Shown here: positions 1 through 58,235 of the stretch, in pieces
Numbering within the stretch: position 1 is the first letter of the stretch
How the letters are laid out: each line of letters begins with the position of its first letter
Source: Heptranchias perlo
Taxonomy: Eukaryota
Reading direction: 5' to 3'
Assembly (NCBI RefSeq): GCF_035084215.1
Contig: NC_090337.1
Location: 25,296,001-25,360,000, forward strand
DNA: 64,000 nucleotides
Made by a program: the position numbers and the translations under genes
The notes under the pieces: model-generated
Told to the model about the DNA's origin: nothing
What the model saw: only the letters and a program-made list of their open reading frames with translations
Databases searched by the model: none

Positions 1-361
1 TGGTTGTCAGGGCCCTCGACTGTGTCCGTCCCATTTCCCACACCTCTGCCCTCACCCCTTCCCCTCCCTCCTAGAACCAAGATAGGGTCCCCCTTGTCCT
101 CACCTTCCACCCCACCAGCTGCCACACTCAACGTATCATCCTCTAGCATTTCCGCCACCTCCAACGCAATGCCGCCGCCAAACACATCTTCCTCTCCCCT
201 CCTCTCAGCATTCCGCAGGGAACATTCCCTCCGCAACACCCTGGTCCACTGTTCCAACACCCGCTCTCCTCCCCACAGCACCTTCCCGTGCAAGCGCAGG
301 AGATGCAACACCTGCCCTTTCACCTCCCTTCCTACTGTCCAGGGCCCTTTCACTCCTTCCA
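1..361 (+). mobile_element. Penelope-like retroelement, 5' part (linker/Cys motif preceding the GIY-YIG domain)
   Basis: ORF 4..384 contains LSAFRREHSLRNTLVH...FPCKRRRCNTCPF...QGP, typical of the PLE linker; interrupted by a CR1 insertion. Confidence 0.8.
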
Positions 362-1479
362 TGGGTGGAGGATTGGTTATCTAACAGGAAGCAGAGAGTT
401 GGGATAAATGGTACATTCTCGGACTGGCAACCAGTAGCCAGTGGTGTTCCGCAGGGGTCGGTGCTGGGTCCCCAACTCTTTACAATCTATATTAACGATT
501 TGGAGGAGGGGACCGAGTGTAACATATCAAAGTTTGCAGATGATACAAAGATGGGAGGGAAAGTAGAGAGTGAGGAGGACATAAAAAACCTACAAGGGGA
601 TATAGACAGGCTGGGTGAGTGGGCGGAGATTTGGCAGATGCAATACAATGTTGGAAAATGTGAGGTTATGCACTTTGGCAGGAAAAATCGGAGAGCAAGT
701 TATTATCTCAATGGCGAGAAACTGGAAAGTACTGCAGTACAAAGGGATCTGGGGGTCCTAGTGCAAGAAAATCAAAAGGTTAGTATGCAGGTGCATCAGG
801 TGATCAAGAAGGCCAACGGAATGTTGGCTTTTATTGCTAGGGGGATAGAATATAAAAACAGGGATGTATTGCTGCAGTTATATAAGGTATTAGTGAGACC
901 GCACCTGGAATACTGCATACAGTTTTGGTGTCCATACTTAAGAAAAGACATACTTGCTCTCGAGGCAGTACAAAGAAGGTTCACTCGGTTAATCCCGGGG
1001 ATGAGGGGGCGGACATATGAGGAGAGGTTGAGTAGATTGGGACTCTACTCATTGGAGTTCAGAAGAATGAGAGGCGATCTTATTGAAACATATAAGATTG
1101 TGAAGGGGCTTGATCGGGTGGATGCGGTAAGGATGTTCCCAAGGATGGGTGAAACTAGAACGAGGGGGCATAATCTTAGAATAAGGGGCTGCTCTTTCAA
1201 AACTGAGATGAGGAGAAACTTCTTCACTCAGAGGGTGGTAGGTCTGTGGAATTTGCTGCCCCAGGAAGCTGTGGAAGCTACACCATTAAATAAATTTAAA
1301 ACAGAAATAGACAGTTTCCTAGAAGTAAAGGGAATTAGGGGTTACGGGGAGCGGGCAGGAAATTGGACATGATTTTAGATTTGAGGTTAGGACCAGATCA
1401 GCCATGATCTTATTGAATGGCGGAGCAGGCTCGAGGGGGCGATTGGCCTACTCCTGCTCCTATTTCTTATGTTCTTATG
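362..1479 (+). mobile_element. Young 5'-truncated CR1 LINE (RT C-terminal half plus 3'UTR)
   Basis: Uninterrupted 335-codon frame with SGVPQGSVLGP, KFADDTK and LVRPHLEYC; (TTCTTATG)n tail; TTCCA on both flanks. Confidence 0.95.
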
Positions 1480-3599: not shown

Positions 3600-5065
3600 A
3601 ATGTGGCGGGTACTCTCAGCTGATCAGGGAATCCACATAGATCTGTGAAGGATAGGTCATGTCTGACTAATCTAGTTGGATTTGAGGTGGTCATTAGCAT
3701 GGTGGATAGAGTAGCGTCTATGGATCTTGTCCATGTGAACTTCCAAAAGGCATCTGATAAGGTTCCACACAAGAGATTATTAGCAAAAATAAAAGCACGC
3801 AGAATTGGACGTAACCTTGTGACATGGGTCGGTAATTGGTTGGTAGGTAGGAGACAGAGTGTCTTGATAAAGGGTTCATTCTCTGATTGGCGGGATGCGA
3901 CAGGTGGTGTTCCCCAGGGATCTATATTGGAGCCTCAACTTTTCATCATATGTGTTAATGACTTGGCTGAGGGAATAAAAAGTTGTATATCCAAGTTTGT
4001 AGATGACACTATGTTAGAAGGCACAGTAAATTCTGCAGATAGGAGCAAAAAGTTATATATGGGTAAACTAAGTGAGTGCGCAAAACCATGACAGATGGAG
4101 TTCAATATGAGGACATCCACTTTACGTTTGAGAAAGACAAACCAGCATGATACCAGGGCTTAAAGGATTAAATTGTGAGGGCAGTTTGAATAAACATGGC
4201 TTGAGTTTGGAAGGTAAAATCAAGGTATTTAAAATTATAGAAATTTGATAGAGTAGATACAGAGAAACTATTTTGGGAATGCAGAACAAGAGGGCATTAA
4301 ATTAGAGCTAGGCCATTTAAGAATGAAATTAGGAAGCATTTTTTCCACAAAGGGTCGTGGAAATCTGGAACACTCTCTTCGAAAACTTACTAGAATGGTT
4401 CCAGGGATGAGGGACTTCAGTTATGTGGATAGACTGGAGAAGCTGGGGTTGTTCTCCTTAGAACAGAGAAGGTTGAGAGGAGATTTGATAGATGTGCTCA
4501 AAATTATGAGGGGTCTAGATAGAGAGAAACTGTTACCATTGGCGGAAGGGTCGAGAACTAGAGGACAGATTTAAGGTGATTGGCAAAAGAACCAAAGGCA
4601 ACATGAGGAAAAACATTCTTACACAGCGAGTAGTTGTGATCTGAAATGCAATGCCTGAAAGGGTGATGGAGGTAGATTCATTCATGGCTTTCAAAAGGGA
4701 ATTGGATAAGTACTTGAAGGGAAAAAAATTGCAGGGCTGAAGGGAAAAAAATTGCAGGGCTGAAGGGAAAAAAATTGCAGGGCAACAGGGAAAGGGCAGG
4801 GGGGTGGGACTAGCTGGATTGCTCTTGCAGAGAGCTGGCACTGGCTCGACAGGCCAAATGGCCGCCTCCTGTGCTTCTTTGAAAACACACTGAATGTTGG
4901 GTCAGTTGAAATTTTGAAGACTGAGATTGTTAGATTTTTGTTGGGTAAGGTCAGCAAGAGATGTGGAATTAAGGCAGATAATTGAAGTTGGGGTACAAAT
5001 CAGCCATTATCAATTGAATGGTAGAACAGGCTAGAGAGGCTGATTCGCCCACTCCTGTTCCTATG
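3600..5065 (+). mobile_element. Cluster of decayed CR1 LINE fragments
   Basis: RSCLTNL, FQKASDKVPHKRL, GVPQGSILEP, KFVDDT, LEKLGLFSLEQRRLRGDLI; a second CR1 piece is nested at about 4385-4870. Confidence 0.85.
4715..4783 (+). repeat. 23-bp tandem repeat x3 inside a CR1 3' region
   Basis: (TGAAGGGAAAAAAATTGCAGGGC)x3. Confidence 0.9.
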
Positions 5066-6911: not shown

Positions 6912-7196
<285 letters not shown>

Positions 7197-7324
7197 TGAG
7201 TGTCTGTTTTTGAATTGTGTAAAATGTATTGCTTTGACAAATCTTTGATGCTCATTACAATCATTTCTGGGGAGATGGACAGTTTTGATTAACTGTTGAC
7301 ATGCTTGTAAATTTTGTTTTCACG

Positions 7325-8510
7325 CTGAGGCTTTGTGGCACACTCACCTCTGAGTCAGAAAGTCACATAGAATATACAGCATAGAAACAGGCCATTTGGC
7401 CCAACAGGTCAATGCCTGTGTTTGTGCTCTGCATGAACCTCCTCCCTCCCTACTTCATCTGACCCTATCAGCATATCCTTCTATTTCTTTCTCCCTCATG
7501 TGTTTATCTAGCTTTTCCTTAAATGCATCTATGCTATTCACCTCAACTTCTTGTGGTAGTAAGTTCCATATTTTAACAGATCTCTGCGTGAAGAAGTTTC
7601 TCTTGAATTCCCCATTGGATTTATTAGTCTTATATTTATGGCCCCTAGTTCTGGTCTCCTCTGCAAGTGGAAACATCCCTCTATCTCTACTCTATCAAGC
7701 CCTTTCATAATCTTAAAGACCTCTATTAGGTCATCCTCAGTTTTTTTTCTAGAGAAAAGAGCCCCAGCCTGCTCAGTCTTTCCTGATAGGTATAACCCTT
7801 CAGTTCTGGTATCACCCAATAAATCTTTTTTGCACTTTCTCCAGTGCCTCTATATCTTTTTTATAATATGGAGACCAGAACTGTTCACAATACTCCAGGC
7901 TTGGCCTAACCAATGTTCTATACATGTTTAACATAACTTCTCTCCTTTTCTATTCTATCCTTCTAGAAATGAACCCCAGTCGGTGCTTGGTTTGCTTTTT
8001 TTTTATGGCCCTATTAACCTGCATCATTGTGGTGATTTGAGTATTGTATCTCCCGATCCCTCTACTCCATTTAGACTCTTATTATCCAAGCAGTATGCAG
8101 CCCCCTTATTCCTACCAAAATGTAATACCTCACACTTGCCCATATTGAAATTCATTTGCCAATTACACGCCCATTCTGCAAGTTTATTAATGTCTTCCTG
8201 TAGGTCCAGCGCTGCACTGTCGGAGGTGCCGTCTTTCAAATGAGATGTTAAACTGAGGCCCAACTGCCCCCTTAGATGGACATAAAAGATCCTATGGTCC
8301 TACTTCAAAGATGATCAGCGAAGTTCTTGCCGGTGTCCTGGCCAATATTTATCCCTCAGCCAACAGCAGAAACATTATCTGGTCATTATCACATCGCTGT
8401 TTGTGGGACCTTGCAAATTGGCTGCCGCATTTCCTTCAAAAGTACTTAATTAGTTGTTAAGTGCTTTGGGGTGTCATGAAAGGCGCTATATAAATGCGAG
8501 TTCTTTCTTT
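7325..8510. mobile_element. Deu-domain/SacSINE-like tRNA SINE (+) split by a minus-strand CR1 fragment (about 7365-8200)
   Basis: SINE head CTCTGAGTCAGAA at about 7350; body GGAGGTGCCGTCTTTC...TAAAAGATCC and L2-like tail ATAAATGC at 8200-8510; minus-strand CR1 peptides (RTRGHKYK, WQMNFNMGKCEVLHFG). Confidence 0.75.
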
Positions 8511-8922
8511 GGTACCTACTCAACATTTGCTGCGACCGTTACTCCAGTGAGTTGGCTTTACAGTGAAATTAGTGACTGTCATACTAGTTCCCATTTTGAC
8601 AAGACTAGAATTTGTTGCCCACTTTGCACTGGATTTTTGAGCTTTGATCAGGGTTTAAAAATGTATACGAGCAAATGTCTTTAGCTTGCTGTGGATTGTA
8701 TCTTGAATGTGTTCATTTAGCGTCTGTTACTAAGCAAGCAAGGAATCTTTTAATGGTTTTTAAAATTCCATAGTTGTTTCCTTTTTGAATTAAAGTTTTT
8801 ATTGAATTCACTAATCCTTTACTTGCTGAGTGCACAGTTTGAGTATAGTTGTCTGTATGATCTAGATGCTTAAGTTGTATTTGTTTCAATTTTATATGGA
8901 ATAACATTTTACTTGAGAAAAA

Positions 8923-9056
8923 TGCAGCTATAGGTGCAGTTACTTTACAGCTGAGCTGCTTGGTGCAATGCTGTCTATCTCCCTGCAGAAACAGTTGCTT
9001 AATACTATCCCTAATTGCCTCCTTCGGCTGACAGGGACTTTTGGGCACATACATAA
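8923..9056 (+). ncRNA. Candidate intronic H/ACA-like sno/scaRNA
   Basis: About 134 nt with two hairpins judged by eye and ACA at 9051-9053; the hinge only imperfectly matches ANANNA. Confidence 0.3.
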
Positions 9057-9313
9057 ACAATGCTTTTGGCTTTATTTTTCTATAATAGTGAATGATTTTC
9101 TATAATACTTTATTGCCTCTTGCTTCCAAAACTGTATATCTTGTTTAAACACTTAATTTGCTGGGCTTCTGTTGTATTATTTCTATTCGGGATTTTAGTT
9201 CCCAATTGCATTACTACAATAATGGTTCCCTGTTCCACTGGTTTCCAATTTAGCAAACATTGCTGACTTTGTTTGTGTTGGTTAAATGTACCTTTCTTTT
9301 ATTCCTTTTACAG

Positions 9314-9458
9314 CAACACTGTCACTCCTGGTGGTAAACCAAACAAGACTCGTGTCATTTGGGGTAAAGTGACTCGTGCTCATGGAAATAGTGGCATGGT
9401 CCGTGCCAAGTTCAGCAGTAACCTGCCCGCTAAGGCTATTGGGCACAGGATTCGCGTG
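9314..9458 (+). CDS. RPL35A: RPL35A coding exon 3
   Basis: (N)[48 protein letters not shown]; AG/GT boundaries. Confidence 0.97.
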
Positions 9459-10466
9459 GTGAGTGCAGGAAACAACTTTTTTTTCAGATGTCCATTTTAT
9501 ATTTGGTGTCTCCGTACTGATCTAATCCTCGTGGTGGTCTAGAAGTCTACAAGTTTTGAGCTCTGTTTAGTATATACAACAGTCTAAATTCTGCTTTAAG
9601 CCAGCAGAGGTCAGATTGTTGTAGCTTAATAGTTCAGTTGCTTCATTGTTACGTATGATAGAGTTACTGGCTTAAAGCTATATGGCGCTGTTTTGTTTTT
9701 TGAAGTCCTGATTAAAGTGACTCAAGATATAACAATCAGTAGACTGTAGTATTTGGATTTACTTGGAGTAGATCATATAATTGAAATTGGTATGTTGCCT
9801 CAGAGACTTCCCATGGACAATGTTGAGCTGTCCAGTTGGGTATCTGGTTCTCCCCAGCGACGGACTATGAAAATGCAGTGGAATAATATTTGTTGAGGCT
9901 GACAGTGTTACTGACTAGTGTTCAGGTTTTAGAAATAGAATTTGGACAAGTTTCCTAAGTGAGGAAAGGAACGGCTTTACATTCATCATTGTGCTCTCTG
10001 GATACTACAAGGTCACTTCTGGTCCAGCTAAGTTTAGTTTAGTATTAACTGCAACCAGGTATGGTTGGCATGCTTAATAATTACTATATTTTGAAACATT
10101 TTAGAAGCAAACTAGCAGCATCTACTGGATTCTGCTTGTAATGTAGTGGGCAGTTGAGGCAATCATTGATAAAAGGACTCTGACTTGGGGGCTTGTCTGT
10201 TCAAGTCAAGCTGCCTGTCCTCAATTGCACAAAGCAGACACAAATTGCAAAATATGGAAATCCAGTATTTGCTAAGTTTTTATTGTATTATGTATGTTTA
10301 AATAAAATGACCAATAATGGTACTGAATAATGCAGTAGTTTGGCAAGTATATATTTTTCCGTGTAAGTGCAACTTAAATAAATTTTTTCTCATTTGATGG
10401 AAGCATTAAGCTGTTTGTAAATATTTCACTTTATATAATCGTCTTATAATTTTTGTTCTTTTCCAG

Positions 10467-11609: not shown

Positions 11610-13160
11610 TTATTTTTATTTGTTCATGGGATGTGGGCGTCGCTGGCAAGGCCAGCATTTATTGTCCATCCCTAATTGCCTTTGAGATGGTGGTGGTGAG
11701 CCGCCTTCTTGAACCGCTGCAGTTTGTGTGGTGAAGGTTCTTCCACAGTGCTGTTAGGCTTTTGACCCAGTGACTATGAAGGAATGGCGATATATTTCCA
11801 AGTCGGGATGATGTGTGACTTGGAGGGGAACGTGCAGGTGGTGTTGTTCCTATGTGCCTGCTGCCCTTGTCCTTCTAGGTGGTAGAGGTCGCGGGTTTGA
11901 GAGATGCTGCAGTGCATCCTGTGGATGGTACTGCAGCCACTGTGCGCCGGCGGTGAAGGGATTGAATGTATGGGGTGGCAATCAAGCGGGCTGCTTTGTC
12001 CTGGATGATGTTAAGTTTCTTGTGTTGGAGCTGCACTCATCTAGGCAAGTGGAGAGTATTCCATCACACTCCTGACTTGTGTCTTGTAGATTGTGGAAAG
12101 GCTTTGGGGAATCAGGAGGTGAGTCACTCGCCACGGAATACCCAGCCTCTGATCTGCTCTTGTAGCTACAGTATTTATGTGGCTGGTCCAGTTAAGTTTC
12201 TGGTCAATGGTGACCCCAAGGATGTTGATGGGGGATTCGGCGATGGTAATGCTGTTGAATGTCAAGGAGAGGTGGTTAGACTCTTGTTGGAGATGGTCAT
12301 TGTCTGGCACGAATATTACTTGCCACTTATCAGCTCAAGCCTGGATGTTATCCAGGTCATGCTGCATGCAGGCACAGACTGCTTCGTTATCTCAGGGGTT
12401 GTGAATGGAACTGAACACTGCAATCATCAGCGAACATCCACTTTTCTGCCCTTATGATGGAGAGAAGGTCATTGATGAAGCAGCTGAAGGTGGTTGGGCC
12501 TAGGATACCGCCCTGAGGAACTCCTGCAGCAATGTCCTTGGGCTGAGATGATTGGCCTCCCACAACCACTACCATCTTCCTTTGTGCAAGGTATGACTCC
12601 AGCCACTGGCGAATTTTCCCCCTGAATCCCACTGACTTCAATTTTACAAGGGCTCCTTGGTGCCACGCTCAGTCAAATGCTGTCTTGATATCAAGGGCAG
12701 TCACTCTCACCTCACCTCTGGAATTCAGCTCTTTTGTCCGTGTTTGGACCAAGGCTGTGATGAGGTCTGGAGCTGAGTGGTCCTGGCAGAACCCAAACTG
12801 AGCGGTGAGCAGGTTATTGGTGAGTAAGTGCCACTTAATAGCACCATCAACGACATCTTCCATCACTTTGCTGATGATTGAGAGTAGACTGATGGGGCGG
12901 TAATTGGCTGGATTGGATTTGTCCTGCTTTTTGTGGACAGGACGTACCTGGGCAATTTTCCACATTGTCGGGTGGATGCCAATGTTGTAGCTGTACTGGA
13001 ACAGTTTGGCTAGAGGCGGAGCTAGTTCTGGAGCAGAAGTCTTCAGCATTACAGCCAGGATGTTGTCGGGGCCCATAGCCTTTGTTGTATCCAGTGCACT
13101 CAGCCGTTTCTTGATATCACGTGGAATGAATCGAATTGGCTGAAGACTGGCTTCTGTGAT
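11610..13160 (-). mobile_element. Decayed non-LTR retrotransposon (CR1/L2/Jockey-group RT), distinct from the amniote-type CR1 copies
   Basis: GPDNI, PANYRPISLLSIISKVME, ALDIKTAFD, AGVPQGGILGP, FADD, YKTQVRSVMEY, with frameshifts. Confidence 0.85.
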
Positions 13161-13174
13161 TTATTCAGGTTCGA

Positions 13175-13680
13175 ATCATACAGCAGAGAAGGAGGACATT
13201 CGGCTCATTGTGCCTGTGTCAGCTCTTTGAAAGCTATTCAATTAGTCCAAACGCCCTGCAAATTTTCCATTTCAAGTATATATCCAGTTCCCTTTTGAAA
13301 GTTACTAGTGAATCTGTTTCCACCACCTTTTCAGGCAATGCATTCCAGATCATAACTTGCTGTGTTTAAAAAAAAAATTCTCCTCACCTCCCCTTTGGTT
13401 CTTTTGCCAATTACCGTAAATCTGTATCCTCTGGTTACCGACCCTCCTGTCAGTGGAAACAGTTTTTCCTCATTTAATCTTATCAATACCCTTCATAATT
13501 TTGAATACTTCTGTTAAATCTCTCCATAACCTCCTGCTCTAAGGAGAACAATCCTAGCTTCTCTAGTCTCTACACATAACTAAAGTCCCTCACCCTGGTA
13601 TCATTCTGGTAAATTGCCTCTGCACCCTCTTCAGTGCCTCGACATCCTTCCTAAAGTGTGATGCCCAGAACCGGACACTA
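13175..13680 (-). mobile_element. CR1 3' fragment
   Basis: Reverse complement resembles the CR1 RT end and 3'UTR seen elsewhere in the window. Confidence 0.75.
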
Positions 13681-14450
13681 CTCCACCTCTCTTTAATCTT
13701 GATATCTTTTCTAAGTTAACTGCTATAAAATTGCGCGTTGTTACATTGTATTGAATACTGACAATCTGAAGCTGACCTATTTGACAGAAGTATAGTAATA
13801 TGTACAATAAGAAGCAGACTTGATTATGCCACTTTAAGGCTGAATTTTGTGGGGAAGACTTGTGCAGATTGGAGTCTGGTGATTTATACAAAATAATTTC
13901 CACTAGAAACTTTCTTTTGTCAACCTGGGCCTTTGCCAGAGTATGGCTGGGAAAACACAAACCATCTTGACTCAATGCCAGATATAAACAAAGGCTCCTT
14001 TCTACCACAATACAACAGGACGTGTGAACAGTGAAGTGTTTTAGGATTTCTTACTTAGAAACTGCAAATTTATCTGCTGTTTGCCTTGTTTAAGCATGGC
14101 ATACCACCTTAATATGATAAAGTTAGAGGAAAAAAAATCATGGTGTTGGGTTAAAAATAATTCTGTGCGTTTAGTACAATTATATGGGATCAATTCAGGA
14201 TACAAAGATCTTAAACCAGTTTCCCCTGAAATGGAATTAGTTGTCCTTGTACCATGTACAGGAACATACAACATTTTTATTTTCTCCCAGCTATTTCAAC
14301 TTCTTTTCTGTTTCTTTCTTGGATTCTTGTTATTTCCATGTATTTATTTTACCTTCTCCACTTGTTTTTGTTATGACTCAAAGGTAAAAATAATCCCTTT
14401 TTTGATCATCAAAAGATCTGTATAGATTGGACTATGCATCTTCTGGCTCT

Positions 14451-14681
14451 CAATTGTAAACAATTTTACAACACCAAGTTATAGTCCAGCAATTTTATTT
14501 TAAATTCACAAGCTTTCGGAGGCTACCTCCTTCCTCAGGTGAACGATGTGGAACACCTGAGGAAGGAGGTAGCCTCCGAAAGCTTGTGAATTTAAAATAA
14601 AATTGCTGGACTATAACTTGGTGTTGTAAAATTGTTTACAATTGTCAACCCCAGTCCATCACCGGCATCTCCACATCATGA
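14451..14681. mobile_element. Non-autonomous Penelope-type element: perfect palindrome plus tail, with 13-bp TSD
   Basis: Arms 14451-14541 and 14554-14644 are exact reverse complements; CTTCTGGCTCTCA at 14440-14452 and 14682-14694. Confidence 0.9.
14554..14588 (+). ncRNA. Minimal type I hammerhead ribozyme motif (mirror copy on - strand at 14507-14541)
   Basis: CAC-CUGAGGA-A-GGAGG/UAG/CCUCC-GAAA-GC-UU-GUG: catalytic core, stem II, palindromic stem III, CAC/GUG stem I. Confidence 0.8.
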
Positions 14682-16674
14682 CTTCTGGCTCTCAGGGTGA
14701 CCTGCTCCAAGGTCACAACTCTTCCATCTCACAGTGCCATCCATACATCATACCTTTGCCTATTACCCCTGCCCACTCTGTACCAATCATATCTTGTCAA
14801 ATCTCATTGTTTGACATATCATGTATTCACTGCCACCTTCCTCATTGTCTGCTCCACTTATTTTTTTTTCATACTCCTTGTAATCTCCTTGGCATCCACT
14901 TGTCACCACCTTCTGATGACCTGACCTGCTTGATACCAAGAACTTGCCATACAGGGAATTACTGGCCCTACCCAATGGCCTACCTTTCCAATCTGCAGCA
15001 GTTTGATAAAAGATGTACCACTAAATCACCATTAATTCTGTTTTTAAAGGAAAAGAATGAAAAAGTGCAATTTGTTCCTTGTCCAGAAAAATTCCATTGT
15101 ATTTTTCAAATGAGAGAACACTATGCTTTACTTTGGCTCTATTGGAATAAGCGTACACATCTTTCAAGATAATGACTAATATTAATGCAGAGAAATTGCT
15201 CTGAAGAGAGCAACACATGTCCATCTCAATTGATTTTTTTTCCCTGGTCCTATGTGAGATACAATAATACTTCAATTTATGCTAAGCTAGGAAACTGATG
15301 TAAATGTTCAGCCCATTGTTGATGGTGACCTCAATCAAATGGTCTCAGCTTCCATAGGCACATAGCCAGAAACATGCATGTTCACACAACCATATAACCC
15401 TTTTTGGTCACAACATATGATTTAGCCAGTTTCAGTGGCAATTCCTGCAAACTATGTTTTTGATATACTAACAAGTATGTATGAGATTGTTGAAAGTAAC
15501 TAACATAATACCAAAATGAGAAGTTACTGTGACATTTTAGAATTTTTTATTCATACTTTCTCTTGTTTTTCCTTAGTTTTAGATGCTAAATTCAAAAATG
15601 GAGGTTACATCTTCATTAAAAGTCAGCATGTGTGCTCAGTTGAAGTGTCTGGTTTATTGCCAGAGCAGCTCTTTGAATGGGACAAAGTACTTGGCACGTT
15701 AATTCTGTGATGCAAAGTTGGTAAGAGATGATGTATCATAGGAACACTTGCTGTAATCCTATTAGGACAGACTGGGAAAAGAGGCAACTTAATTCTGATC
15801 AGAAATAAAACATTTTTCAGTTAAAGGTGCTTTAAACCAGGCATGATGGAATGTGTCTAACTTGTTGAGGGTACTGTCCGCCAGTCCGCAGATGACATAG
15901 GTTCTGACACCGGCACAGATAGTCATCAGGAGGAGAAAGAAAATCTGATTTAGATGCGATGGGGGAAATGGGCCCGTGTCTAGCAGATGACATTTAACGT
16001 AGTGTAATGCAAGTCGGTAGGGCTAATGCCTTGCAGGTGTATACTATTTTGGCCTCAAAAGTATTGGGATCAAGCCTGATTCATAGAACTGACTTTATTG
16101 GACTTGTTCCTAATGACCATTATGCAATGTTCCTGAGTGAATTACATTGAATTAATTTGATTTTAAAAATCTTAAATGGTTTTTCAGAGAGTGAAAAGAT
16201 GAAAACACTTTACCCTTGTACCATCTGTTATGACGAAACAGCAGCAGCCATTATCAGGAACGTGTACTTTTATGTTCTCACCATTGTTTTTCAACCTTTG
16301 CCTTCTGATTGGCCGAAGCTCAGCCTGTAGAACAGAAATGAACATGAGTAGCTAAACTGTGTTTTCCTGAAATGAGCCACTGCTGTGTAATATCTTCATA
16401 AGGATCAGTGCTGGAGAGAATATTCTTAATAAAAAAAAACTTTCTTTCACTCCTACCTATTGCAAAATGCAGTGTATTTATTGCACCAATTCAAAGATAC
16501 TCACACAATGTTTATACTAGCCATCTGGAAAAGTCTTGGCATTGCACCAGTCAGTTAAATCTTCAGCTTGCAGGTCATAAAAACCTGCAGAAAGGTGTGA
16601 TGGATTTTGTAATATATACAATGAAAAAATGTAACTACTGTGGTACATGAGCTTTATCAAAAAAGGAGCTAAAA

Positions 16675-20399: not shown

Positions 20400-20570
20400 A
20401 AGGGAGCGCCATTCCCCACTGCTTGTGACATCACAAAGAGCAGCGGCACCGCCCCTTTATGTGTTGGCGTACTTGATTGGTCAATGCCTGGCCAGCTGGC
20501 ATTCGGAGAGGCGGAGCTTAGCGGGGATCAGTAACTTTCCGCGGGGGTCTGAGAGAGTGAAGGGCTGAGG
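20400..20570 (+). promoter_or_regulatory. Promoter of the C2orf72-like gene
   Basis: CRE-like TGACATCA at about 20426, GC boxes CCGCCC/GGCGGAG, inverted CCAAT (ATTGG at about 20477), CpG-rich. Confidence 0.55.
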
Positions 20571-21231
20571 ATGGAGGAAGGGGGAGCAGATTTAGATCCA
20601 GACTGGACCGAGAGGGAGTTCCAGCAACTGGTCAAAGCCATTGGAGGCAGAGAGAGCATCTTCCTGATCGGGGAGGTGTGCGAGAGCCGGGACCTGATGT
20701 TTCAGTTCGTTAGTAACATGTTTCCACATTCTGGGGAAGTTTGCAGTAAAATTTCGGACACGGGGAGCAATCAGCAAATGATGGAGCCGCAATGCAAGGA
20801 CTCGGAGACCGACAACGAGCGGGAGTTTCAGGGCTTATTGGATTCTTCTACCAAGGTGACCCACCTGGTTAACGGGAGTAAGGAGCAGAGGCGGATCAAA
20901 GCCCGGCTAATTCTCTTCCTCTTCCACCAGGATTTCATCTGTAACAAGCAGAACGATCTCGTAATCCGAGAGCTTCTGAAGGACGTTCGGCAACGGTCCA
21001 GTTCCTGGGAAGACCTGCCTGCTCTCATCGGGGTGGTCCACGCTGACACTGCTAGCGGGGAGCTGAGCGTCGCCGTCCGCCTTATAGAGTATTACCTGCG
21101 GACAGTCTTTCACCGGCATCCGGGTGAGTGCGTGCAGGCACTTCCCTTCATATCCAACCAGCCAGACTCTATGACAGAGCTGAAAAAGACCACCTGTGTT
21201 GTCCTCCGAGCTGTTTCGAGCGTCACAGCAG
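20571..21231 (+). CDS. C2orf72: C2orf72-like uncharacterised protein, exon 1
   Basis: CpG-rich 220-codon frame (FQQLVKAIGGRESIFLIGE...LILFLF...PALIGVV); phase-1 donor CAG/GTACCT; lies upstream of PSMD1 as human C2orf72 does. Confidence 0.8.
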
Positions 21232-21989
21232 GTACCTAGCAGGACTCACAGCTAATCTGACATTATAGGATTCTCCCTACATGTTATGGAATTGTCTTTG
21301 TTTTTTGGTGTATGTTTTTACCCCCATTGAATGTAGTTTGTCATCAATGTCGTTGTGGCAGGACGCATTAATACTAGTCTGAGCCGAAGATTTCCCGATA
21401 ATTGTCCGACGATCCCAAAAAGGGCGCATAGATGCCCAATAGGAGGCAGAAACATAGAACTATCTAGTGCCGATGTCCCCAAACTTTTTTGTTGTTGACC
21501 CCACTACTGAAATTCATGTTCCTGGCACCCCCTCTCTTTCTAAGAAGCAGTATTTTTGCATAGAACATGAGGATTTTATTTTCTGAGCTAACATTACATC
21601 TTACTTAAGAAAGAAGGCAACAGAAATAGAACAGTACCACTATTATACTACCAAATAAACTTGAACATTTGATGGCTTACATTTGTCACAGTGAGTAGGA
21701 TGAGCCTGTTTGCTAGCTGGTTACGATCTCAGCACTCAGTTGGAGTTAAACTCTTTGCCCCCAGACAAGGTTAGGATCTTTGTTCCTATATAGGGTTAGA
21801 ATCTCGCCCCTCAGCTAGAGTTCGGATCCACGTCCCACGGATAGGCTTAGGATCTCAGTCCCCAGATAGGTGAGATTGACATAGGAACTCTGAAGGAAAG
21901 ACAATAGTCAGTAAGGCAAGAGAAAAATGTAGAGGCTGAAGGAGACTGATACACAGAAGTGAAGGAACAACAATCTGTCCCCTCCCCCC

Positions 21990-24140
21990 TCATACATACC
22001 AGTATCCATATCCTTAGTTCCTATAGTCCAACCCCACTTCCTTCACCCAACATTCGCGGCCATGCCTTCGGCTGTCTGAGCCCTAAGCTCTGGAATTCCC
22101 TCCTTTCGATAAGGTACCGCATTGCAGACTCATGGCTAAGGTCAGAGCATGTGGAGTCAGGGGACAGGTAGCAGAATAGATAGAAAGTTGGCTACAAAAC
22201 AGAAAACAGAGAGTAGGGGTTAAGGATAGCTACTCAGACTGGCAAAAGGTATGAAATGATGTTCAACAGGAATCGGTGCTGGGACCTCTGTTGTTCACAA
22301 TTTACATTAACGATTTGGAATCAGAAGTTCAATTTCAAAACTTGCGGGGTATAGTTAGAATCATAGGTTACAGCACGGAAGGAGGCCATTTGGCCCATCA
22401 AGTCCGTGCCGGCTCTATGCACGAGCAATCCAGCTAGTCTCATTCCCCCACTCTGTCCCTGTAGTCCTGCACATTTTTTCGTTTCAAGTACTTATCCAGT
22501 TCCCTTTTGAAGGCCATGATTGAATCTGCCTCCACCATTCCCTCGAGCAGTGCATTCCAGATCCCAACAACTCGCTGCGTAAAAAAAAAGTTTTTCCTCA
22601 TGGCACCTTAGGTTCTTTTGCCAATCACCTTAAATCTATGCCCTCTGGTTCTTGACCCTTCCGCCAATGGGAAAAGTTTTTGTCTACCTACTCTATCTAG
22701 ACCCTTCATGATTTTGAATACCTCTATCAAATCTCCTCTCCACTTTCTCTGTTCCAAGGAGAACAATCCCAGCTTCTCTAGTCTATCCACGTAATTTAAG
22801 TCCCTCATGCCTGGAATAATTCTAGTAAATCTCCTCTGCACCCTCTCTAAGGCCTTCACGTCCTTCCTAAAGTGCGGTGCCCAGAACTGGACACAATACT
22901 CCAGCAGTGGTTGAACCAGTGTTTTATAAAGGTTCATCATGACTTCCTTGCTTTGGTACTCTATTCCTCTGTTTATAAAGCCCAGGACCCCGTATGCTTT
23001 TTTAACCACTCTCTCAACCTGCCCTGCCACCTTTAACAATTTGTGTACATTTTCCCCCCAGATCCCTCTGTTCCTCTACCTCCAAATACAAAAGAAGAAT
23101 GATTCAAAATGCAAGAGGGCATTAATAAACTTGCAGAATGGGTGTGTAATTGGCAAATGAATATAGATAAGTGTGAGGTGGAGCATTTTGGTAGGAAGAA
23201 TAAGGGGGCCACATATTGATTGGATAATAAGAGTCTAAATGGGGTAGAGGAGCAAAGGGATCTAGGGGTACAGATACACAAACCACTAAGAGTAGTGATG
23301 CAGGTTAAAAAGGCAAATCAAGCACTAGGGTTCATTTCTCGAGGGATAGACTTGAAAAGCAAAAAAAGTTATGTTAAACCTGTATAGAACCTTGGTTAGA
23401 CCACACTTGGAGTATTGTGCACAGTTCTGGTCTCTATATTATAGAAAGGATGTAGAGGCATTGGAGGGGGTGCAAAAAAGATTCACAAGGATGGTACCGG
23501 AACTGAGAGGATATCCTTATCAGGAAAGGCTGAACAGGTGGGGCTCTTTTCTCTAGAAAAGAAGAGGCTGAGGAGTGACCTGAAAGAGGTCTTTAAGATA
23601 ATGATAGAGTTCAATAGGGTAGATGTAGAGAAAATGTTTCCATTTGTGGGGGAGTCCAAAACTGGAGGTCATAAATATAAAACAGTTGCTAATAAACCTA
23701 ATAAGGAATTCAGGAGAAACTTCTTTATCCAAAGAGTGGTAAGAATGTGGAACGCGTTACCACAAGGAGTAGTTGAGGCAAATAGTATAGATGCATTTAA
23801 GGGGAAGTTAGATAAGCACACGAGGGAGAAAGGAATAGAAGGGTATGCTGATAGGGTTAGATGAAGTAGGGAGGGAACAGGCTAGTGTGGAGCATAAATG
23901 CCGGTATTGACCATTTGGGCCAAATGGTCTGTTTCTGTGCTGTAGTTTCATTGTAATTCAATGTAAACCTCTCAACCTCTCTCCTTTAAGACCATCCTTA
24001 AAACCTACAAGCTTTTGGTCACCTTAGCTAATGTCGTCTTCTTTGGTTCGGTGTCAATTTTTGTCCAATTACGCTTCTGTGAAGCACCTTGGGATGTTTT
24101 ACTATGTTAAAGGTGCTATATAAATGCAAGTTGTTATTGT
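21990..24140. mobile_element. Three-level nest: L2-type 3' end (+) containing CR1 (+, about 22107-23960) containing CR1 (-, about 22355-23075)
   Basis: L2 tail halves (CTCTGGAATTCCCTCC at about 22090; CCTTTAAGACCATCCTTAAAACCTAC...ATAAATGCAAGTTG at 23980-24135); CR1 peptides on both strands. Confidence 0.8.
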
Positions 24141-39439: not shown

Positions 39440-41255
39440 GCTTCTTCCCATTTCTTCCTCACTCTTTCCCCCCCCCCCCTTTCTTCCTCACTTTCTCCCC
39501 CCCCCCCCCCCTCTTTCTTTCTTCCTCACTTTCTCCCCCCCCCCCTCTTTCTTTCTTCCTCCCCCCCCCTCTTTCTTTCTTCCTCACTTTCTCCCCCCCC
39601 CCCTTCTTTCTTCCTTACTTTCTCCCCCCCCCCTTTCTTTCTTCCTCACTTTCTCCCCCCCCCCTTTCTTTCTTCCTCACTTTCTCCCCCCCCCCTTCTT
39701 TCTTCCTTACTTTCTCCCCCCCCCTTTCTTTCTTCCTCACTTTCTCCCCCCCCCTTTCTTTCTTCCTCACTTTCTCCCCCCCCCCTTCTTTCTTCCTTAC
39801 TTTCTCCCCCCCCCCCTTTCTTTCTTCCTCACTTTCTCCCCCCCCTTTCTTTCTTCCTCACTTTCCCCCCCCCCTTTCTTTCGTCCGCACTTTCTTCCCC
39901 CCCCCTTTCTCTCTTCCTCCCCCCCCCCCTTCTCTCTTCCTCACTTTCTCCCCCCCCTTCTCTCTTCCTCACTTTCTTCCCCCCCTTTCTCTCTTCCTCA
40001 CTTTCTCCCCCCCTTCTCTCTTCCTCCCCCCCCCTTCTCTCTTCCTCACTTTCTCCCCCCCTTCTCTCTTCCTCTCTTCCTCCCCCCCCCTTTCTCTCTT
40101 CCTCCCCCCCCCTTTCTCTCTTCCTCCCCCCCCCCTTTCTCTCTTCCTCCCCCCCCCCCTTTCTCTCTTCCTCCCCCCCCCCCTTTCTCTCTTCCTCCCC
40201 CCCCCCCCCTTTCTCTCTTCCTCCCCCCCCCCTTTCTCTCTTCCTCCCCCCCCCCCTTTCTCTCTTCCTCCCCCCCCCCCTTTCTCTCTTCCTCCCCCCC
40301 CCCCCCTTTCTCTCTTCCTCCCCCCCCCCCCTTCTCTCTTCCTCCCCCCCCCCCCTTTCTCTCTTCCTCCCCCCCCCCCTTTCTCTCTTCCTCCCCCCCC
40401 CCCTTTCTCTCTTCCTCCCCCCCCCTTTCTCTCTTCCTCCCCCCCCTTTCTCTCTTCCTCCCCCCCCCCCCTTTCTCTCTTCCTCCCCCCCCCCTTTTCT
40501 CTCTTCCTCCCCCCCCCCCTTTCTCTCTTCCTCCCCCCCCCCCTTTCTCTCTTCCTCCCCCCCCCCCTTTCTCTCTTCCTCCCCCCCCCCCTTTCTCTCT
40601 TCCTCCCCCCCCCCCCCTTTCTCTCTTCCTCCCCCCCCCCCCCTTTCTCTCTTCCTCCCCCCCCCCCCCTTTCTCTCTTCCTCCCCCCCCCCCCCTTCTC
40701 TCTTCCTCCCCCCCCCCCCCCCTTCTCTCTTCCTCCCCCCCCCCCCCCTTTCTCTCTTCCTCCCCCCCCCCCCCCTTTCTCTCTTCCTCCCCCCCCCCCC
40801 CCTTTCTCTCTTCCTCCCCCCCCCCCCCCCCCTTCCTCTCTTCCTCCCCCCCCCCCCCCCCCTTCCTCTCTTCCTCCCCCCCCCCCCCCCCCTTCCTCTC
40901 TTCCTCCCCCCCCCCCCCCCCCTTCCTCTCTTCCTCCCCCCCCCCCCCCCCCCTTCCTCTCTTCCTCCCCCCCCCCCCCCCCCCTTCCTCTCTTCCTCCC
41001 CCCCCCCCCTTCCTCTCTTCCCCCCCCCCCCCTTCCTCTCTTCCTCCCCCCCCCCCCCCCCCCCCTTCCTCTCTTCCTCCCCCCCCCCCCCCCCCCTTCC
41101 TCTCTTCCTCCCCCCCCCCCCCTTCCTCTCTTCCTCCCCCCCCCCCCCCTTCCTCTCTTCCTCCCCCCCCCCCCCCTTCCTCTCTTCCTCCCCCCCCCCC
41201 CCTTCCTCTCTTCCTCACTTTCTTTCTTTCTTTCTCCCCCCCCCACTTTCTTTCT
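39440..41255 (+). repeat. 1.8-kb polypyrimidine minisatellite (TTTCTCTCTTCCTC + poly-C)
   Basis: Almost pure C/T strand; units of about 20-30 bp with variable C-runs. Confidence 0.97.
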
Positions 41256-47219: not shown

Positions 47220-48470
47220 TTCTTATAGGAACAAGAGTAGGCCATTTAGCCCCTCGAGCCTGTACTGCCATTCTGTTGGACCGTGGCTGAGCTGTACCTC
47301 AACTCCACTTATCTGCCTTTGATCCATATCCCTTGATACCATATCTAATGTCGATTTCAGTCTTCAAAATTCCAATTGACCCACCATCCACAGCCTTTTG
47401 GTGGAGACAGTTCCAGATTTCCATTACCATTTGTGTGAAAAAAGTGCTTCCTGACTTCACTTCTGAATGGCCTAGCTCTAATTTTAAGATTATGTGCTTT
47501 TATTCTGTATTCTCCCACCAGAGGAAAGAATTTCTCTGTATCTACCCTATCAAATCCCTTTTTATTATTTTAAACACCTCAATTATATCACCGCACGACC
47601 GTATAAATTCGAGTTAATACTAACCACGTTTATGCAACCTCCTCGTAATTTAACCCTTTATGCTCCAGTATCATTCTGGGTGAATCTGCACTATATGCCC
47701 TTCAATGCCAATTTATTCTTCCTGAGGTGCATTGCCCAAAACTGAATGCAGTGCTCCAGATGGGGTCTGATCAAGGCTTTGTACAACTGAAGCATATATT
47801 CCTTCCCTTTGTGTTCTAACCCCCTTGATATAAAGGCTAATATTCTGATTACTTTTTTAATCTGTGCATTAGCTTTTAATGATTTGCGAAGCAGGACACT
47901 CAAATCCCTTTGCTTCTCCACAGCTCCTAGTTTCTCCAGTTTAAGAAAATATTCCGAAATGTCTTGGATCCAAAGTGGATGACCTCACATTTTGCTCCAT
48001 CTCCCACAGTTTTGCCCATTCACTTAATCAATTTACGTCCCTTTGTAACCTGCTGCCCCCATCGACACATCTTGCTGTACCTTCTCAGTTAGCGTCATCT
48101 GCAAACTTTGATGCACGACTCTCGATTCCTTCAACCAAGTCATTGATATATATGGTGAAAATCTGAGGCCCCAGTACAGAACCCTGGGGAAAACCACGTG
48201 TCACATCCCACCAATCAAGGTAGATTCCCTTTATCGCTGCTCTCTGTCTCCCATCGCTTGTGCGAAACCTTATCAAATGCCTTCTGGAAGTCCATGCAGA
48301 CAACGTCCATAGAAACTCCCTTATCCATCATATCAGTGACCTCTTCAAAAAATTCAACTAGATTAGTCCGATATGACCTCCCCTTCACAAATCCAGGCTG
48401 ACTCCCTTTGATCAGCTTATTCATGATGATAGATTCCAGTAACTTCCCCACAACTGAGTGGTGGGAACAT
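47220..48470 (-). mobile_element. Decayed CR1 LINE
   Basis: SQPGFVKGRSYRTNLVEFFEEVT, PQGSVLGP, KFADDAN, LIRPHLEHC. Confidence 0.85.
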
Positions 48471-50290
48471 TGCATCATAATCCCCTTGAACAAACTGCAC
48501 ATGCCAAAGAGGGTGCTGCACAAGCAGCTCTCCAGTCTCAGTCACGGGCTACTCTTCAGGAGATCACTGGAAATAGTGGACTGGGTAACTTGCCATTTTT
48601 GTTTTAATTTTTTTCCCCTACTCTCAATGAGGCGGTTTCTTGATCTTCCTTTCCTTCTCTCTTCCCCCTCTTTCCCCCCACCCCCCAGCAGTAACAGCAT
48701 ATGACTTAAGGAACTGGTGATGTAAGAAATTCCGGGTACAGTTCTAAATATTGAAATTTTATGTTGTGCATGTCAATAAGAAATAAGTATGAAAGCTGTT
48801 CTTGATCAATACACTGGTTAATAGAAATAAGTATGAAAACTGTTCCTGACCAAAACACTGTTTTGTTTGCTGTGTACAGTTCTGTAAGTGCAAAGAAGGG
48901 GGGAAAAAAGTCCACATATTATAGTTCACTATTTGTAAAAGTTTAGTTTCTATGATGTCAAACCAGTATATTTTGCTGTGGTTTTTGTTAGCCAATGTCA
49001 TTCAGTTCATCCTAGTAATCCTCAGATTACAAAATTAAAATATTTTTAAGATGTTTCTCCCTTTTTACTAACTGGTGAATTACAGTTTTTGGTAGGTTTT
49101 GTTGCATACTGGTACTATTAGCTACTGCCAATACTTGGGGTCAGTTATATGGTGTGATACCTTGGAAGGGATGGATCATGGGAAATTGAATCATGGGCCA
49201 TGTCACTCATTAGTGCCAAAGGTGAAAGAGTTCTGTGCATTTGTTTTTTTTCTCCTAACCTTTTCATTTGTAGTCATGTTTTTGGTTTCCAACACAAACT
49301 TACATGGTTCAATAACTTTTTTATTTGTTCAATTTTCTCTCATCTTCCCAAAGGCAGTAACTCTTGCTGGAGAATGGTTCCATGCGCAATTGCAGGTCTT
49401 TGGTTTCTCAAACAAGTTGGAATTATTCATACACAAGTCTTGAAATTGAGTGGCAGCAAGCTATTCGTCCTTTGGGGCACTACACAACCGAGCCCTAACT
49501 TGCTGTATTCTGACATCCACATACACACATCCAGCAGAGATTGCTAGATAGTGATTGGGAGCAAGAACCCAGGCTGATTTCCTTCTCCATAATCCAGGAA
49601 TGTTAAGGTCAATTGTAGCCCCTTGTCACTGCTATGGCTGAGATTAGCTAACCCAGCATAGACCAAGTGTCTTAGCTGGGGCCTTCTTGCTCTGTATAGC
49701 TCAGTTGCTCACTGCATCAGGGCATCATGTGTATGCATTTTTAACCATATCTATTTGACTGCAAGACTTTTTAAAAGCAGTCTCTCTAATGATGGTGGTT
49801 TAAATGGCTCTACTCTGGATAAATCTTGTCTACTATGATTGTATCTGTGGAACAAATCTAGCCCAAACCTGATAAAATTGGTAAAGAGCAGATGCTGTCC
49901 GAATGCATCATTTGCACTGTATTATGGAGATTATTTAACTTGTCTCTGTTTTACAGGGAATCTTCTGGATTTTTTTCAGCATACATTCTTGAAATGCAAC
50001 TTGTTCATTTTTATCTTTTTGGTCTTGTTTTGTTGGATGTTATGCTGTATCATGGTTGCTTTTATGAAAACTGATTCTTTTATTGGAAGAAGTTGAGAAT
50101 TGAAAAATTCTGTTAGTAAAAATATTGGTGTCTCCTGAAATGAACTCTGAGCAGCATGGAATGTCTTGGTTCCTGAGCCTGCCATTAGTAACTATTGAAC
50201 TAGGCAGTTTCTTTTTTCAATTTCACACAATCTGCTCGACTTGATTAATATATTTTGTGCTAACTTTTTCTCTTTCATTGCACTTTATAG

Positions 50291-51364: not shown

Positions 51365-52135
51365 AAAACAGTGATGAGGATATTAACAAACTTCAGGAGG
51401 ACATAGACAGACTGGTCACATGGCAGATGAAATTTAACGCAGAGAAGTGTGAAGTGATGCATTTTGGTAGGAAGAATGAGGAGAGGCAATATAAACTAAA
51501 TGGTACAGTTTTAAAGTGGCTGGAGTAACGGAGAGACCTGGGGATGTATGTACAAGGAAGTTATGCTAATTCTTTATAAATCACTGGTTAGGCCTTAGCT
51601 GGAGTATTGTGTCCAATTCTGGGCACCACACTTTAGGAAGGATGTCAAGGCCTTAGGGTGCAGAGAAGATTTACTTGAATGGTACCAGGGATATGGGACT
51701 TCAGTTACATGGAGAGACTAGAGAAGCTGGGGTTATTCTCCTTAGAACAGAGTAGATAGGGGGAGATATAATAGAGGTGTTCAAAATCATGAAGGGTTTT
51801 GATAGAGTAAATAAGGAGTAACTGTTTCCAGTGACAGAAGGGTCGGTAACCAGAGGGGACAGATTTAAGGTAATTGGCAAAAGAACCAGAGGCGAGATGA
51901 GGAGAATTTTTTTTTTTAAGCAGCGAGTAATGAGCTGGAATTCACTGCCTGAAAGGGGGGTGGAAGCAGATTCAATAATAACTTTCAAAAGGTAATTGGA
52001 TAAATATTTGAATGGAAAAGATTTGCAGGGCTATGGGGAAAGAACAGGGGAGTGGGACTAATCGAATAGCATTTTCAAAGAACCAGCGCAGACACAATGT
52101 GCTGAATGGCCTCTTGTGCTGTATCATTCTATGAC
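51365..52135 (+). mobile_element. CR1 3' fragment
   Basis: WQMKFNAEKCEVMHFG; CR1 3'UTR ending ATTCTATG. Confidence 0.85.
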
Positions 52136-58029: not shown

Positions 58030-58235
58030 CAAAATGCATTGATCATTACACAAAGCTTCGTGTTGAAAATAGAGATCTACCTGATGGTGAGGAGAAATCT
58101 ATTGACCCTCGATTAGAAGGTATTGTGAATAAGATGTTTCAACGCTGCTTTGATGACCACAAATACAAACAGGCAATTGGCATTGCTCTAGAGACCAGAC
58201 GGCTTGACGTCTTTGAGAAAGTGATTCTTGAATCC
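58030..58235 (+). CDS. PSMD1: PSMD1 exon 5
   Basis: (A)[13 protein letters not shown]...[25 protein letters not shown]. Confidence 0.96.

What the first reader, a model, noticed from the sequence alone, without database searches (positions are those of the whole stretch)
14440..14694. Perfect 194-bp palindrome carrying a hammerhead ribozyme on each strand, flanked by a 13-bp TSD
Seen: 91-bp arms (14451-14541, 14554-14644) that are exact reverse complements around a 12-nt loop, a 37-nt unpaired tail, and CTTCTGGCTCTCA on both sides. Each arm, read outward from the loop, has CAC-CUGAGGA-stem II(GGAGG/CCUCC)-GAAA-GCUU-GUG followed by AATAAA. Known: Penelope-like elements carry minimal type I hammerheads with palindromic stem III that cleave as dimers, and often insert with inverted terminal repeats. 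Inferred: this is a very recent, ORF-less mobile unit of about 230 bp (retrozyme-like). A read-through transcript from either strand would fold into a long hairpin masking its own ribozyme and could be a Dicer or ADAR substrate.
Basis: partly seen in the sequence, partly recalled or inferred. Interest (0 to 1): 0.8.

Follow-up and report, generated by a model that had tools for sequence, protein, structure and literature searches.

The report
Two-primer footprint of a Penelope retrotransposon
This palindrome is one of thousands of short scars left by an abundant, recently active Penelope-like jumping gene, not a separate mobile ribozyme element, but the scars together suggest how these elements copy their RNA from both cut DNA ends at once.

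Summary
In detail: 91-bp perfect arms, 12-nt spacer, 37-nt tail, 13-bp direct repeat, hammerhead cores. The retrozyme-like reading is not. The unit is 100% identical to the pseudo-LTR of a full-length Penelope-like element (PLE) in the same genome, whose 893-902-aa RT + GIY-YIG ORF starts at the ATG inside the tail. The genome holds 31,219 exact tail copies and 8,323 compact fold-backs, but this exact junction occurs only twice, so the hairpins are independent insertions. An inverted copy plus a one-sided tail is known PLE anatomy. What the copies add: 44 of 49 hairpins chosen blind to the tail have exactly one tailed and one tail-less arm; target duplications are 12-13 bp; both outer joints show microhomology; inner ends pile up 29-30 nt below a TATA box; 76 of 85 arms run through the ribozyme cut site. 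Best model (inferred): a staggered double nick, two reverse transcriptions from two start sites about 37 nt apart, run-off near the RNA 5' end, then joining of the two cDNAs. Ribozyme cleavage, the transcription start and transcription of this locus are untested. New member of a known kind; moderate interest.

The parts
14440..14452 (.). Left copy of the 13-bp target-site duplication; its last 2 nt also match the element (microhomology)
   Evidence: sister copies have 12-13-bp duplications of unrelated sequence
14451..14553 (-).
   Evidence: identical to L213:3803-3905
14504..14544 (-). Minimal type I hammerhead motif with complete 6-bp stem I; predicted cut between 14510 and 14509
   Evidence: activity not tested
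14542..14553 (-). 12 nt present only in the inverted arm; the inversion junction lies at 14553/14554 and has no microhomology
14554..14644 (+). Direct pseudo-LTR arm, 5'-truncated inside hammerhead stem I (43 nt below the parent's TATA box)
14554..14588 (+). Minimal type I hammerhead motif with stem I cut down to 3 bp; predicted cut after 14585
   Evidence: activity not tested
14596..14601 (+). AATAAA hexamer (mirror copy 14494-14499 on the minus strand); use as a polyadenylation signal not shown
14645..14681 (+). PLE tail (37 nt), the end of the parent's 5' UTR
14678..14680 (+). ATG that starts the 893-902-aa RT + GIY-YIG ORF in full-length parents; here it opens no element ORF
14682..14694 (.). 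Right copy of the 13-bp target-site duplication; its first 2 nt also match the element (microhomology)

Best explanation
The feature is a dead-end, minimal insertion of an abundant and recently active endonuclease-bearing Penelope-like retrotransposon (probably Neptune clade), made by priming on both target strands. SHOWN from sequence: identity with the parent pseudo-LTR, independent origin of each hairpin, 12-13-bp duplications, two fixed outer ends about 37 nt apart, one of each per insertion, microhomology at both outer joints, a pile-up of inner ends. INFERRED steps: (1) the GIY-YIG nuclease, probably in a dimer, nicks both strands 12-13 bp apart; (2) each 3' end pairs over about 1-4 nt with the element RNA, one at the start codon and one about 35-37 nt upstream at the tip of a predicted stem-loop; (3) both RTs copy toward the RNA 5' end, usually on the same RNA or on RNA from the same source copy, passing through the uncleaved hammerhead; (4) when the RNA starts at the pseudo-LTR promoter there are only about 105-140 nt to copy, so both cDNAs run off at or just short of the transcription start; (5) the two cDNA ends are joined, often over 1-6 nt of microhomology, and filled in, giving a palindrome with a tail on one side. 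Longer copies arise when the start sites lie in a downstream pseudo-LTR of a read-through or tandem transcript. The hairpin copy lacks the TATA box and the ORF and shows no sign of spawning daughters.
For: Parent: the 140-nt unit matches L213 at 100%, followed by an 893-aa ORF; 902-aa ORFs in L061-L063, L070, L216; Pfam RVT_1 E 3e-10, GIY-YIG E 4e-4 on the C-terminal part, just under the cut-off. Independence: 2 exact junctions of 8,323 compact fold-backs, and those two differ in duplication and outer end. One-tail rule: 44 of 49 (P = 4e-9 against a free 50:50 choice); 43 of 49 by a separate motif test; 54 tail-less against 3 tailed inverted partners among 85 tail-selected copies, 28 without a partner within 1.5 kb; 62,115 arm matches against 31,219 tail matches. 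Duplication 12-13 bp in 37 of 47 and 40 of 45. Microhomology of 2 nt or more at 25 of 45 joints on each side against 10% and 16% in swapped-target controls. Arms identical within an insertion in 28 of 49 against 5.7% of 1,176 cross pairs. Each arm holds sequence the other lacks; tail-less arm reaches further in 16, tailed arm in 16, even in 11. Inner ends: 11 of 45 ends between +3 and +47 fall at TATA+29/30, corrected P 7e-5; 28 of 98 in the compact set, across variants whose TATA-to-core distance differs; genome-wide counts for this variant fall 28% over the 2 nt at +29 to +27, then 12% over 5 nt and about 15% over the next 15 nt (2,720; 1,948; 1,710; 1,462). 76 of 85 arms cross the predicted ribozyme cut. 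In vitro precedent: an anole PLE cleaves and extends both strands, starts RT at two adjacent sites that bound the tail, is predicted to be a dimer, and does not need ribozyme cleavage (PMC11167929).
Against: No biochemistry or RNA-end data for this element; the transcription start is inferred only from distance to a TATA-like box. The D. virilis Penelope promoter is TATA-less and internal (PMC2377424). [quoted passage not shown] Exceptions exist: 1 of 49 with two tails, 1 with none, 3 unclassified. The loss of arms is also steep over +35 to +29 (6,688 to 2,720; confounded by sequence variants), so the ends are spread over about 10 nt and not at one base. 28 of 85 tailed copies have no inverted partner within 1.5 kb. 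Arm identity could also come from repair or conversion within the palindrome. The finding's own central junction has no microhomology. Samples come from the first 17 Mb of one contig plus 30 best hits.
Confidence: 0.7

Rival explanations
1. The 229-bp hairpin is itself a replicating non-autonomous element (retrozyme-, SINE- or MITE-like) that borrows the PLE protein.
For: ORF-less, flanked by a duplication, 8,323 similar compact structures; a few central junctions recur, for example three perfect-palindrome centres among 50 listed.
Against: This junction occurs twice in 3.25 Gb and the two copies have different outer ends; centre sequences are very varied; recurrent centres sit at self-complementary spots where independent joins are expected; no promoter in the unit; not tandem.
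Confidence: 0.04
2. One cDNA is made from the tail end, then folds back and copies itself, and the copy is joined to the other target end.
For: Arms are usually identical (28 of 49); central microhomology is common (29 of 49 with 1 nt or more).
Against: Here the tail-less arm carries 12 nt that the tailed arm lacks, in the orientation that a fold-back would not give; 16 of 43 are like that; the tail-less end is fixed at about -36 with microhomology to the target; some arm pairs differ at common family polymorphisms (L014, L021, L027, L124).
Confidence: 0.08
3. Two-ended priming as in the best model, but the short length comes from RT stalling at the hammerhead or another structure, or from two separate RNAs (dual priming), and not from run-off at a transcription start on one template.
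For: Many inner ends lie within about 15 nt of the hammerhead core; a few arm pairs differ at shared polymorphisms; dual priming was proposed for L1 (PMC2837659).
Against: The peak follows the TATA box (+29/30) in variants where the core is 45 or 38-39 nt from it; counts flatten upstream of +27; two free RNAs would not by themselves give the one-tail rule or the excess of identical arms.
Confidence: 0.15
4. Assembly fold-back artefact.
For: Perfect palindromes are a known long-read artefact (general knowledge); raw reads over this locus were not examined.
Against: Target duplication around the structure, unique left flank, asymmetric arms, thousands of analogues each with its own duplication, older analogues whose arms have diverged.
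Confidence: 0.01

Closest known systems
Endonuclease-bearing Penelope-like elements, Neptune/Nematis type (PMC8557442)
   Same: Single ORF with RT, DKG motif, C-terminal GIY-YIG, pseudo-LTRs, partial tandems, inverted 5'-truncated copy, 30-40-bp tail often at one end, hammerhead in the pseudo-LTR, CX2-5CxxC linker.
   Different: The window copy is the shortest form, with no ORF. I saw no microsatellite targeting in the 45 duplications scored (68% A+T). Clade not placed on a tree.
PAc, Poseidon element of Anolis carolinensis (PMC11167929)
   Same: Two RT start sites bounding the tail, both strands cut and extended, AT-rich targets, hammerhead cleavage apparently not needed for insertion.
   Different: In PAc the ORF starts at hammerhead stem II and the start sites lie over 100 nt inside the ORF; here the ATG is 122 nt below the core and the start sites are at the ATG and about 36 nt upstream. 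PAc showed no strand difference in start site; here each insertion uses one of each.
Minimal type I hammerheads of metazoan PLEs (PMC4209133)
   Same: Core, extra base between 9 and 10.1, G10.1-C11.1 pair, palindromic 15.2-16.2; pairs of motifs on opposite strands 100-700 bp apart were already noted there in Schistosoma.
   Different: Cleavage triplet CUU; motifs here sit almost back to back; activity untested.
L1 twin priming and dual priming (PMC2837659)
   Same: Second priming from the top-strand nick gives an inverted piece within a target duplication.
   Different: In L1 it is a variant pathway and the two pieces cover different parts of the RNA with an internal deletion; here it looks like the main pathway (54 of 85) and the two cDNAs cover the same stretch from two fixed starts.
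Non-LTR retrozymes (PMC7229834; bioRxiv 10.64898/2026.07.22.740005)
   Same: Short, non-coding, type I hammerhead, related to PLE pseudo-LTRs.
   Different: Retrozymes are head-to-tail tandem repeats that yield circular RNA; this unit is inverted, single, and has one motif per strand.

Membership tests
EN+ Penelope-like element (parent family) | Single ORF with RT domain | tested here: met
   902-aa ORF, Pfam RVT_1 E 3.3e-10 above cut-off
EN+ Penelope-like element (parent family) | [quoted passage not shown] | tested here: met
   Pfam GIY-YIG E 4.3e-4, 21 bits against cut-off 22.6; Atlas neighbours at 0.95-0.96 with GIY-YIG on 13-18% of members; cysteines read from the translation
EN+ Penelope-like element (parent family) | DKG motif before the RT core | tested here: met
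   read from the translation; motif named in PMC8557442
EN+ Penelope-like element (parent family) | Pseudo-LTRs, partial tandems and inverted 5'-truncated copy | tested here: met
   3,082-bp tandems in L061, L063, L154; inverted copies in L070, L156, L213, L214
EN+ Penelope-like element (parent family) | 30-40-bp tail at one end | tested here: met
   37 nt here; one end only in 44 of 49
Neptune clade | CX2-5CxxC linker between RT and EN (shared with Nematis, absent in Penelope/Poseidon) | tested here: met
   CX4CxxC in P0001; definition from PMC8557442
Neptune clade | RT phylogeny groups with Neptune and not Nematis | not tested
   no reference sequences were fetched and no tree was built
Minimal type I hammerhead ribozyme | Conserved core, base between 9 and 10.1, G10.1-C11.1, palindromic 15.2-16.2 | tested here: met
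   GCUU at the cut in 356 of 360 motifs found in the fetched loci (overlapping loci count more than once)
Minimal type I hammerhead ribozyme | Stems I and II kept by covariation | tested here: inconclusive
   24 hand-picked variants: 92.8% of cells paired, 13 two-sided changes, 0 of 500 shuffles; but the pair-count measures were not significant (131 and 49 of 500) and the sequences are related
Minimal type I hammerhead ribozyme | Match to an Rfam hammerhead model | tested here: not met
Minimal type I hammerhead ribozyme | Self-cleavage, as a dimer or with protein help | not testable with these tools
   a two-copy cofold paired stems I and II across molecules and did not show the stem III dimer
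Non-LTR retrozyme | Head-to-tail tandem units, each with a hammerhead | tested here: not met
   single inverted pair; no other copy in the 64-kb window
Non-LTR retrozyme | The unit replicates as a family with fixed boundaries | tested here: not met
Non-LTR retrozyme | Expressed as circular RNA | not testable with these tools
   no run on record as RNA, contigs only

The most novel reading that the evidence does not exclude
In this PLE family the normal insertion reaction is obligatorily two-ended: one protein dimer on one RNA cuts the target with a 12-13-bp stagger and launches two reverse transcriptases from two fixed sites about 37 nt apart, one per strand, the rear one displacing the front one. 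Both run off at the transcription start when the 5' pseudo-LTR is used, a 'strong-stop'-like product. That single rule would explain the one-sided tail, the inverted copy and the excess of ~230-bp hairpin scars, and would make PLEs a steady source of thousands of perfect genomic palindromes.
Probability: 0.4. Interest if true: 0.7.

Novelty: new member of a known kind. Interest (0 to 1): 0.42.

Why it matters
The single locus is ordinary: one of thousands of truncated PLE insertions with anatomy already drawn in PMC8557442. The family matters more. That paper calls the origin of the tandem and inverted structures still undefined, and the only in vitro PLE system I found in the library (PMC11167929) explains the tail but not the inversion. 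This genome offers tens of thousands of young junctions and near-identical intact ORFs, which turn the question into counts and simple assays: stagger length, which start site goes with which strand, one RNA or two, where the RNA begins. It also means at least 8,323 near-perfect hairpins of about 200 bp that would be double-stranded RNA if transcribed; PLEs were reported as heavily A-to-I edited in lizard (PMC5625713), but nothing here shows that for this genome.

Tried and rejected
Rfam: no hammerhead match on the hairpin or on one arm; the miRNA-precursor hits are generic hairpin matches far below gathering scores and were rejected. Empty-site search: the left flank is single-copy, so no paralogous empty site exists in this assembly. 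RNA evidence: no RNA holder listed; the four runs laid on the parent pseudo-LTR are contigs from one sample, RNA status a guess, and cannot show starts, ends or strand; they show loose ends at the tail end with varied flanks but were not used as support. No solved structure matched P0001. Ribozyme-defined 5' ends: no pile-up at the cut, 2 of 85 within 7 nt of it. Intron-defined 5' end as in D. virilis: no acceptor AG at the pile-up position. In one search, 11 'inverted' hits with outer end -194 were an internal repeat of the 3' UTR and were discarded; one search recounted (its flag for continuation into the ORF was mis-indexed and was ignored). Dropped rows: L145 (duplicate of L144), L003 (duplicate of L002), 33 of 78 loci lacked an anchor or an exact duplication. 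Earlier findings of the scan: three look-ups returned nothing. Literature: nine searches; none returned a paper on paired start-site use, twin priming in PLEs or this family, but the library lacks most subscription papers, the Lunse 2017 paper was not held, Repbase and Dfam could not be searched, and no supplements were read, which may bear on the novelty claim.

Full report
1. Observation. The arms (14451-14541, 14554-14644) are 91 nt and fully complementary around 12 nt, the tail is 37 nt, and a 13-nt exact direct repeat flanks the whole. The hairpin is far beyond chance (z = -26.7). There is no second copy in the 64-kb window. The left flank is single-copy in the genome. Pfam places RPL35A-family exons at about 7.0-9.5 kb, a DUF4630 frame at 20.6-21.2 kb and RPN2_N exons from 58 kb (101 of 104 listed frames of 85 aa or more were scanned), so the feature lies between two plus-strand coding regions; whether a transcript covers it is unknown. 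The host is a 3.25-Gb genome; that it looks like a cartilaginous fish is my recollection of such repeats, not a test.

2. It belongs to a very large family. A 35-mer of the tail has 31,219 exact matches, a 32-mer of the arm 62,115. A pattern for two back-to-back hammerhead cores within 30 nt finds 8,323 sites. The finding's exact centre occurs twice, and the other copy (L005) has a different duplication and outer end. The 50 centres listed and the 29 of 30 best hits that could be parsed are highly varied. So the hairpins are made again and again and do not descend from one hairpin master.

3. The parent. At 672 places the tail continues into the same downstream sequence. That sequence is an ORF starting at the ATG in the tail: 902 aa in L061, L062, L063, L070 and L216, 893 aa in L213. 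[quoted passage not shown] Units of about 3,082 bp stand in near-identical tandems. The finding's left arm plus tail (140 nt) is 100% identical to the pseudo-LTR of L213, whose layout is inverted tailed copy, direct pseudo-LTR, ORF, tail-less pseudo-LTR. The 12-nt 'loop' is the upstream continuation of the left arm in that parent.

4. What is already known. PMC8557442 describes the adjacent inverted 5'-truncated copy and a 30-40-bp tail often at one end only, and calls the cause undefined. PMC4209133 (first two of four parts read) describes minimal hammerheads in PLE repeats with the same extra base, G-C closing pair and palindromic 15.2-16.2, notes pairs on opposite strands 100-700 bp apart, and found low activity even as dimers. 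PMC11167929 (first two of four parts) shows that an anole PLE protein cleaves and extends both strands, starts RT at two adjacent sites that bound the tail, and does not need ribozyme cleavage. PMC2377424 (passages) places the Penelope promoter in the pseudo-LTR, TATA-less in D. virilis. PMC7229834 (passages) and bioRxiv 10.64898/2026.07.22.740005 (first part and passages) define animal retrozymes as tandem repeats. PMC2837659 (passages) defines twin and dual priming for L1. PMC5625713 (passages) reports editing of Penelope in lizard. The anatomy of the finding is therefore a known kind.

5. What the copies say about mechanism. (a) Outer ends. Among the first 50 compact fold-backs, chosen without regard to the tail, 44 have one tailed and one tail-less arm, 3 have a tail plus an unclassified end, 1 has two tails, and 2 (one duplicated locus) have none; 44 of 49 against a free 50:50 choice gives P = 4e-9. 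A motif test gives 43 of 49. Among 85 of the first 100 tail matches, 54 have a tail-less inverted partner within 1.5 kb, 3 a tailed one, 28 none; 44 of the 54 span 300 bp or less. The genome-wide arm-to-tail ratio is 1.99 (different probes, so approximate). Tail-less ends centre on -36 and tailed ends on the first few bases of the ORF. (b) Target. Duplications are 12-13 bp in 37 of 47 and 40 of 45 (overlapping sets), 68% A+T, with no fixed sequence. Microhomology of 2 nt or more with the element occurs at 25 of 45 joints on each side, against 10% and 16% when targets are swapped (45 of 78 loci scored). (c) Template. Arms are identical over 78 nt in 28 of 49 insertions against 5.7% of cross pairs; a few pairs differ at common family polymorphisms, which suggests two templates now and then. 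Either arm may reach further inward (16, 16, 11 even), which a simple fold-back of one cDNA does not give. (d) Inner ends. They peak 29-30 nt below a TATAAAT box of the parent: 11 of 45 ends between +3 and +47 in the tail-selected set (corrected P 7e-5) and 28 of 98 in the compact set, whose pattern limits how far ends can reach. The peak holds in variants with 45 and with 38-39 nt between box and core. Genome-wide, copies of this variant reaching +35, +29, +27, +22 and +7 number 6,688, 2,720, 1,948, 1,710 and 1,462: steep loss down to +27, slow loss beyond. The first step is confounded by sequence variants and the last probe has a different 3' anchor. About 30 nt below a TATA box is where polymerase II starts (established knowledge), so I read this as run-off at the RNA 5' end with some trimming. 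25 of the 85 arms extend upstream of the box and must come from longer templates. (e) Ribozyme. 76 of 85 arms cross the predicted cut, so the templates were uncleaved, as in PMC11167929. The motif is nonetheless conserved, with pairing kept in 92.8% of cells and 13 two-sided changes among 24 picked variants (related sequences, so suggestive only). Rfam does not recognise it.

6. Model. A staggered double nick; each 3' end pairs briefly with the RNA, one at the ATG and one about 36 nt upstream at the tip of a predicted stem-loop (z = -2.0); two cDNAs run toward the RNA 5' end; their ends are joined, often by short microhomology (29 of 49 centres overlap by 1-6 nt; the finding's own centre is blunt), and filled in. 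In the window copy the tail-less cDNA stopped at TATA+31 and the tailed one at +43. The product has no promoter box and no ORF. The junction facts are shown; nicking, priming, template number and the transcription start are inferred. Against the model: no RNA-end or biochemical data, the anole protein showed no strand difference in start site, a third of tailed copies have no nearby partner, and the samples come mostly from one contig end.

7. Verdict. Real, young, and a new member of a known kind: a minimal PLE insertion with inverted pseudo-LTR and one tail. My nine literature searches found no paper that quantifies paired start-site use or run-off at the transcription start in PLEs, but key older papers, repeat libraries and all supplements were not seen, so that part may be in print. 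Interest 0.42: the locus is ordinary, the family is a good handle on an open mechanistic question.

Noticed in passing
L153 (G000:C2:21272400-21277000): Head-to-tail array of a 404-bp derivative of this PLE (3' end of the pseudo-LTR with TATA box and hammerhead, plus the first 128 nt of the ORF), 10 hammerhead cores at exact 404-bp spacing. This, unlike the finding, fits the definition of a non-LTR retrozyme born from a PLE.
   Followed up: partly
L154, L061, L063: Tandems of two to three or more full-length 3,082-bp units at 99-100% identity, several with open 902-aa frames: the family looks active now or very recently.
   Followed up: partly
L088-L117, L031-L060: Several pseudo-LTR variants (different sequence between TATA box and hammerhead, different 3' UTR, about 81% alike) share a 95-97% identical protein: promoter turnover on a constant ORF.
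   Followed up: partly
L213:3802-3990: Predicted fold pairs the first 7 nt of the inferred transcript with ORF bases about 37-43, enclosing the hammerhead and both RT start sites; not checked in the other variants.
   Followed up: no
L065, L066, L064, L144/L145, L002/L003: Some insertions are duplicated together with their flanks (local or segmental duplications), so raw counts slightly overstate independent events.
   Followed up: partly
window 6912-9539 (+), 20553-21236 (+), 58008-60094 (+): Coding exons with Pfam matches to Ribosomal_L35Ae, DUF4630 and RPN2_N.
   Followed up: no
window 54183-56110 (-): Fragments matching SCAN, zinc knuckle, aspartyl protease and integrase zinc-binding models in separate frames: a decayed LTR-retrotransposon-like stretch.
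   Followed up: no
window 39451-41255: Strongly strand-skewed tandem repeat region of about 1.8 kb.
   Followed up: no
window 86-1369, 3624-4088, 12390-13688, 22369-23944, 47225-48541, 51553-52129: Many old LINE-like RT fragments and dispersed repeats at 65-85% identity.
   Followed up: no
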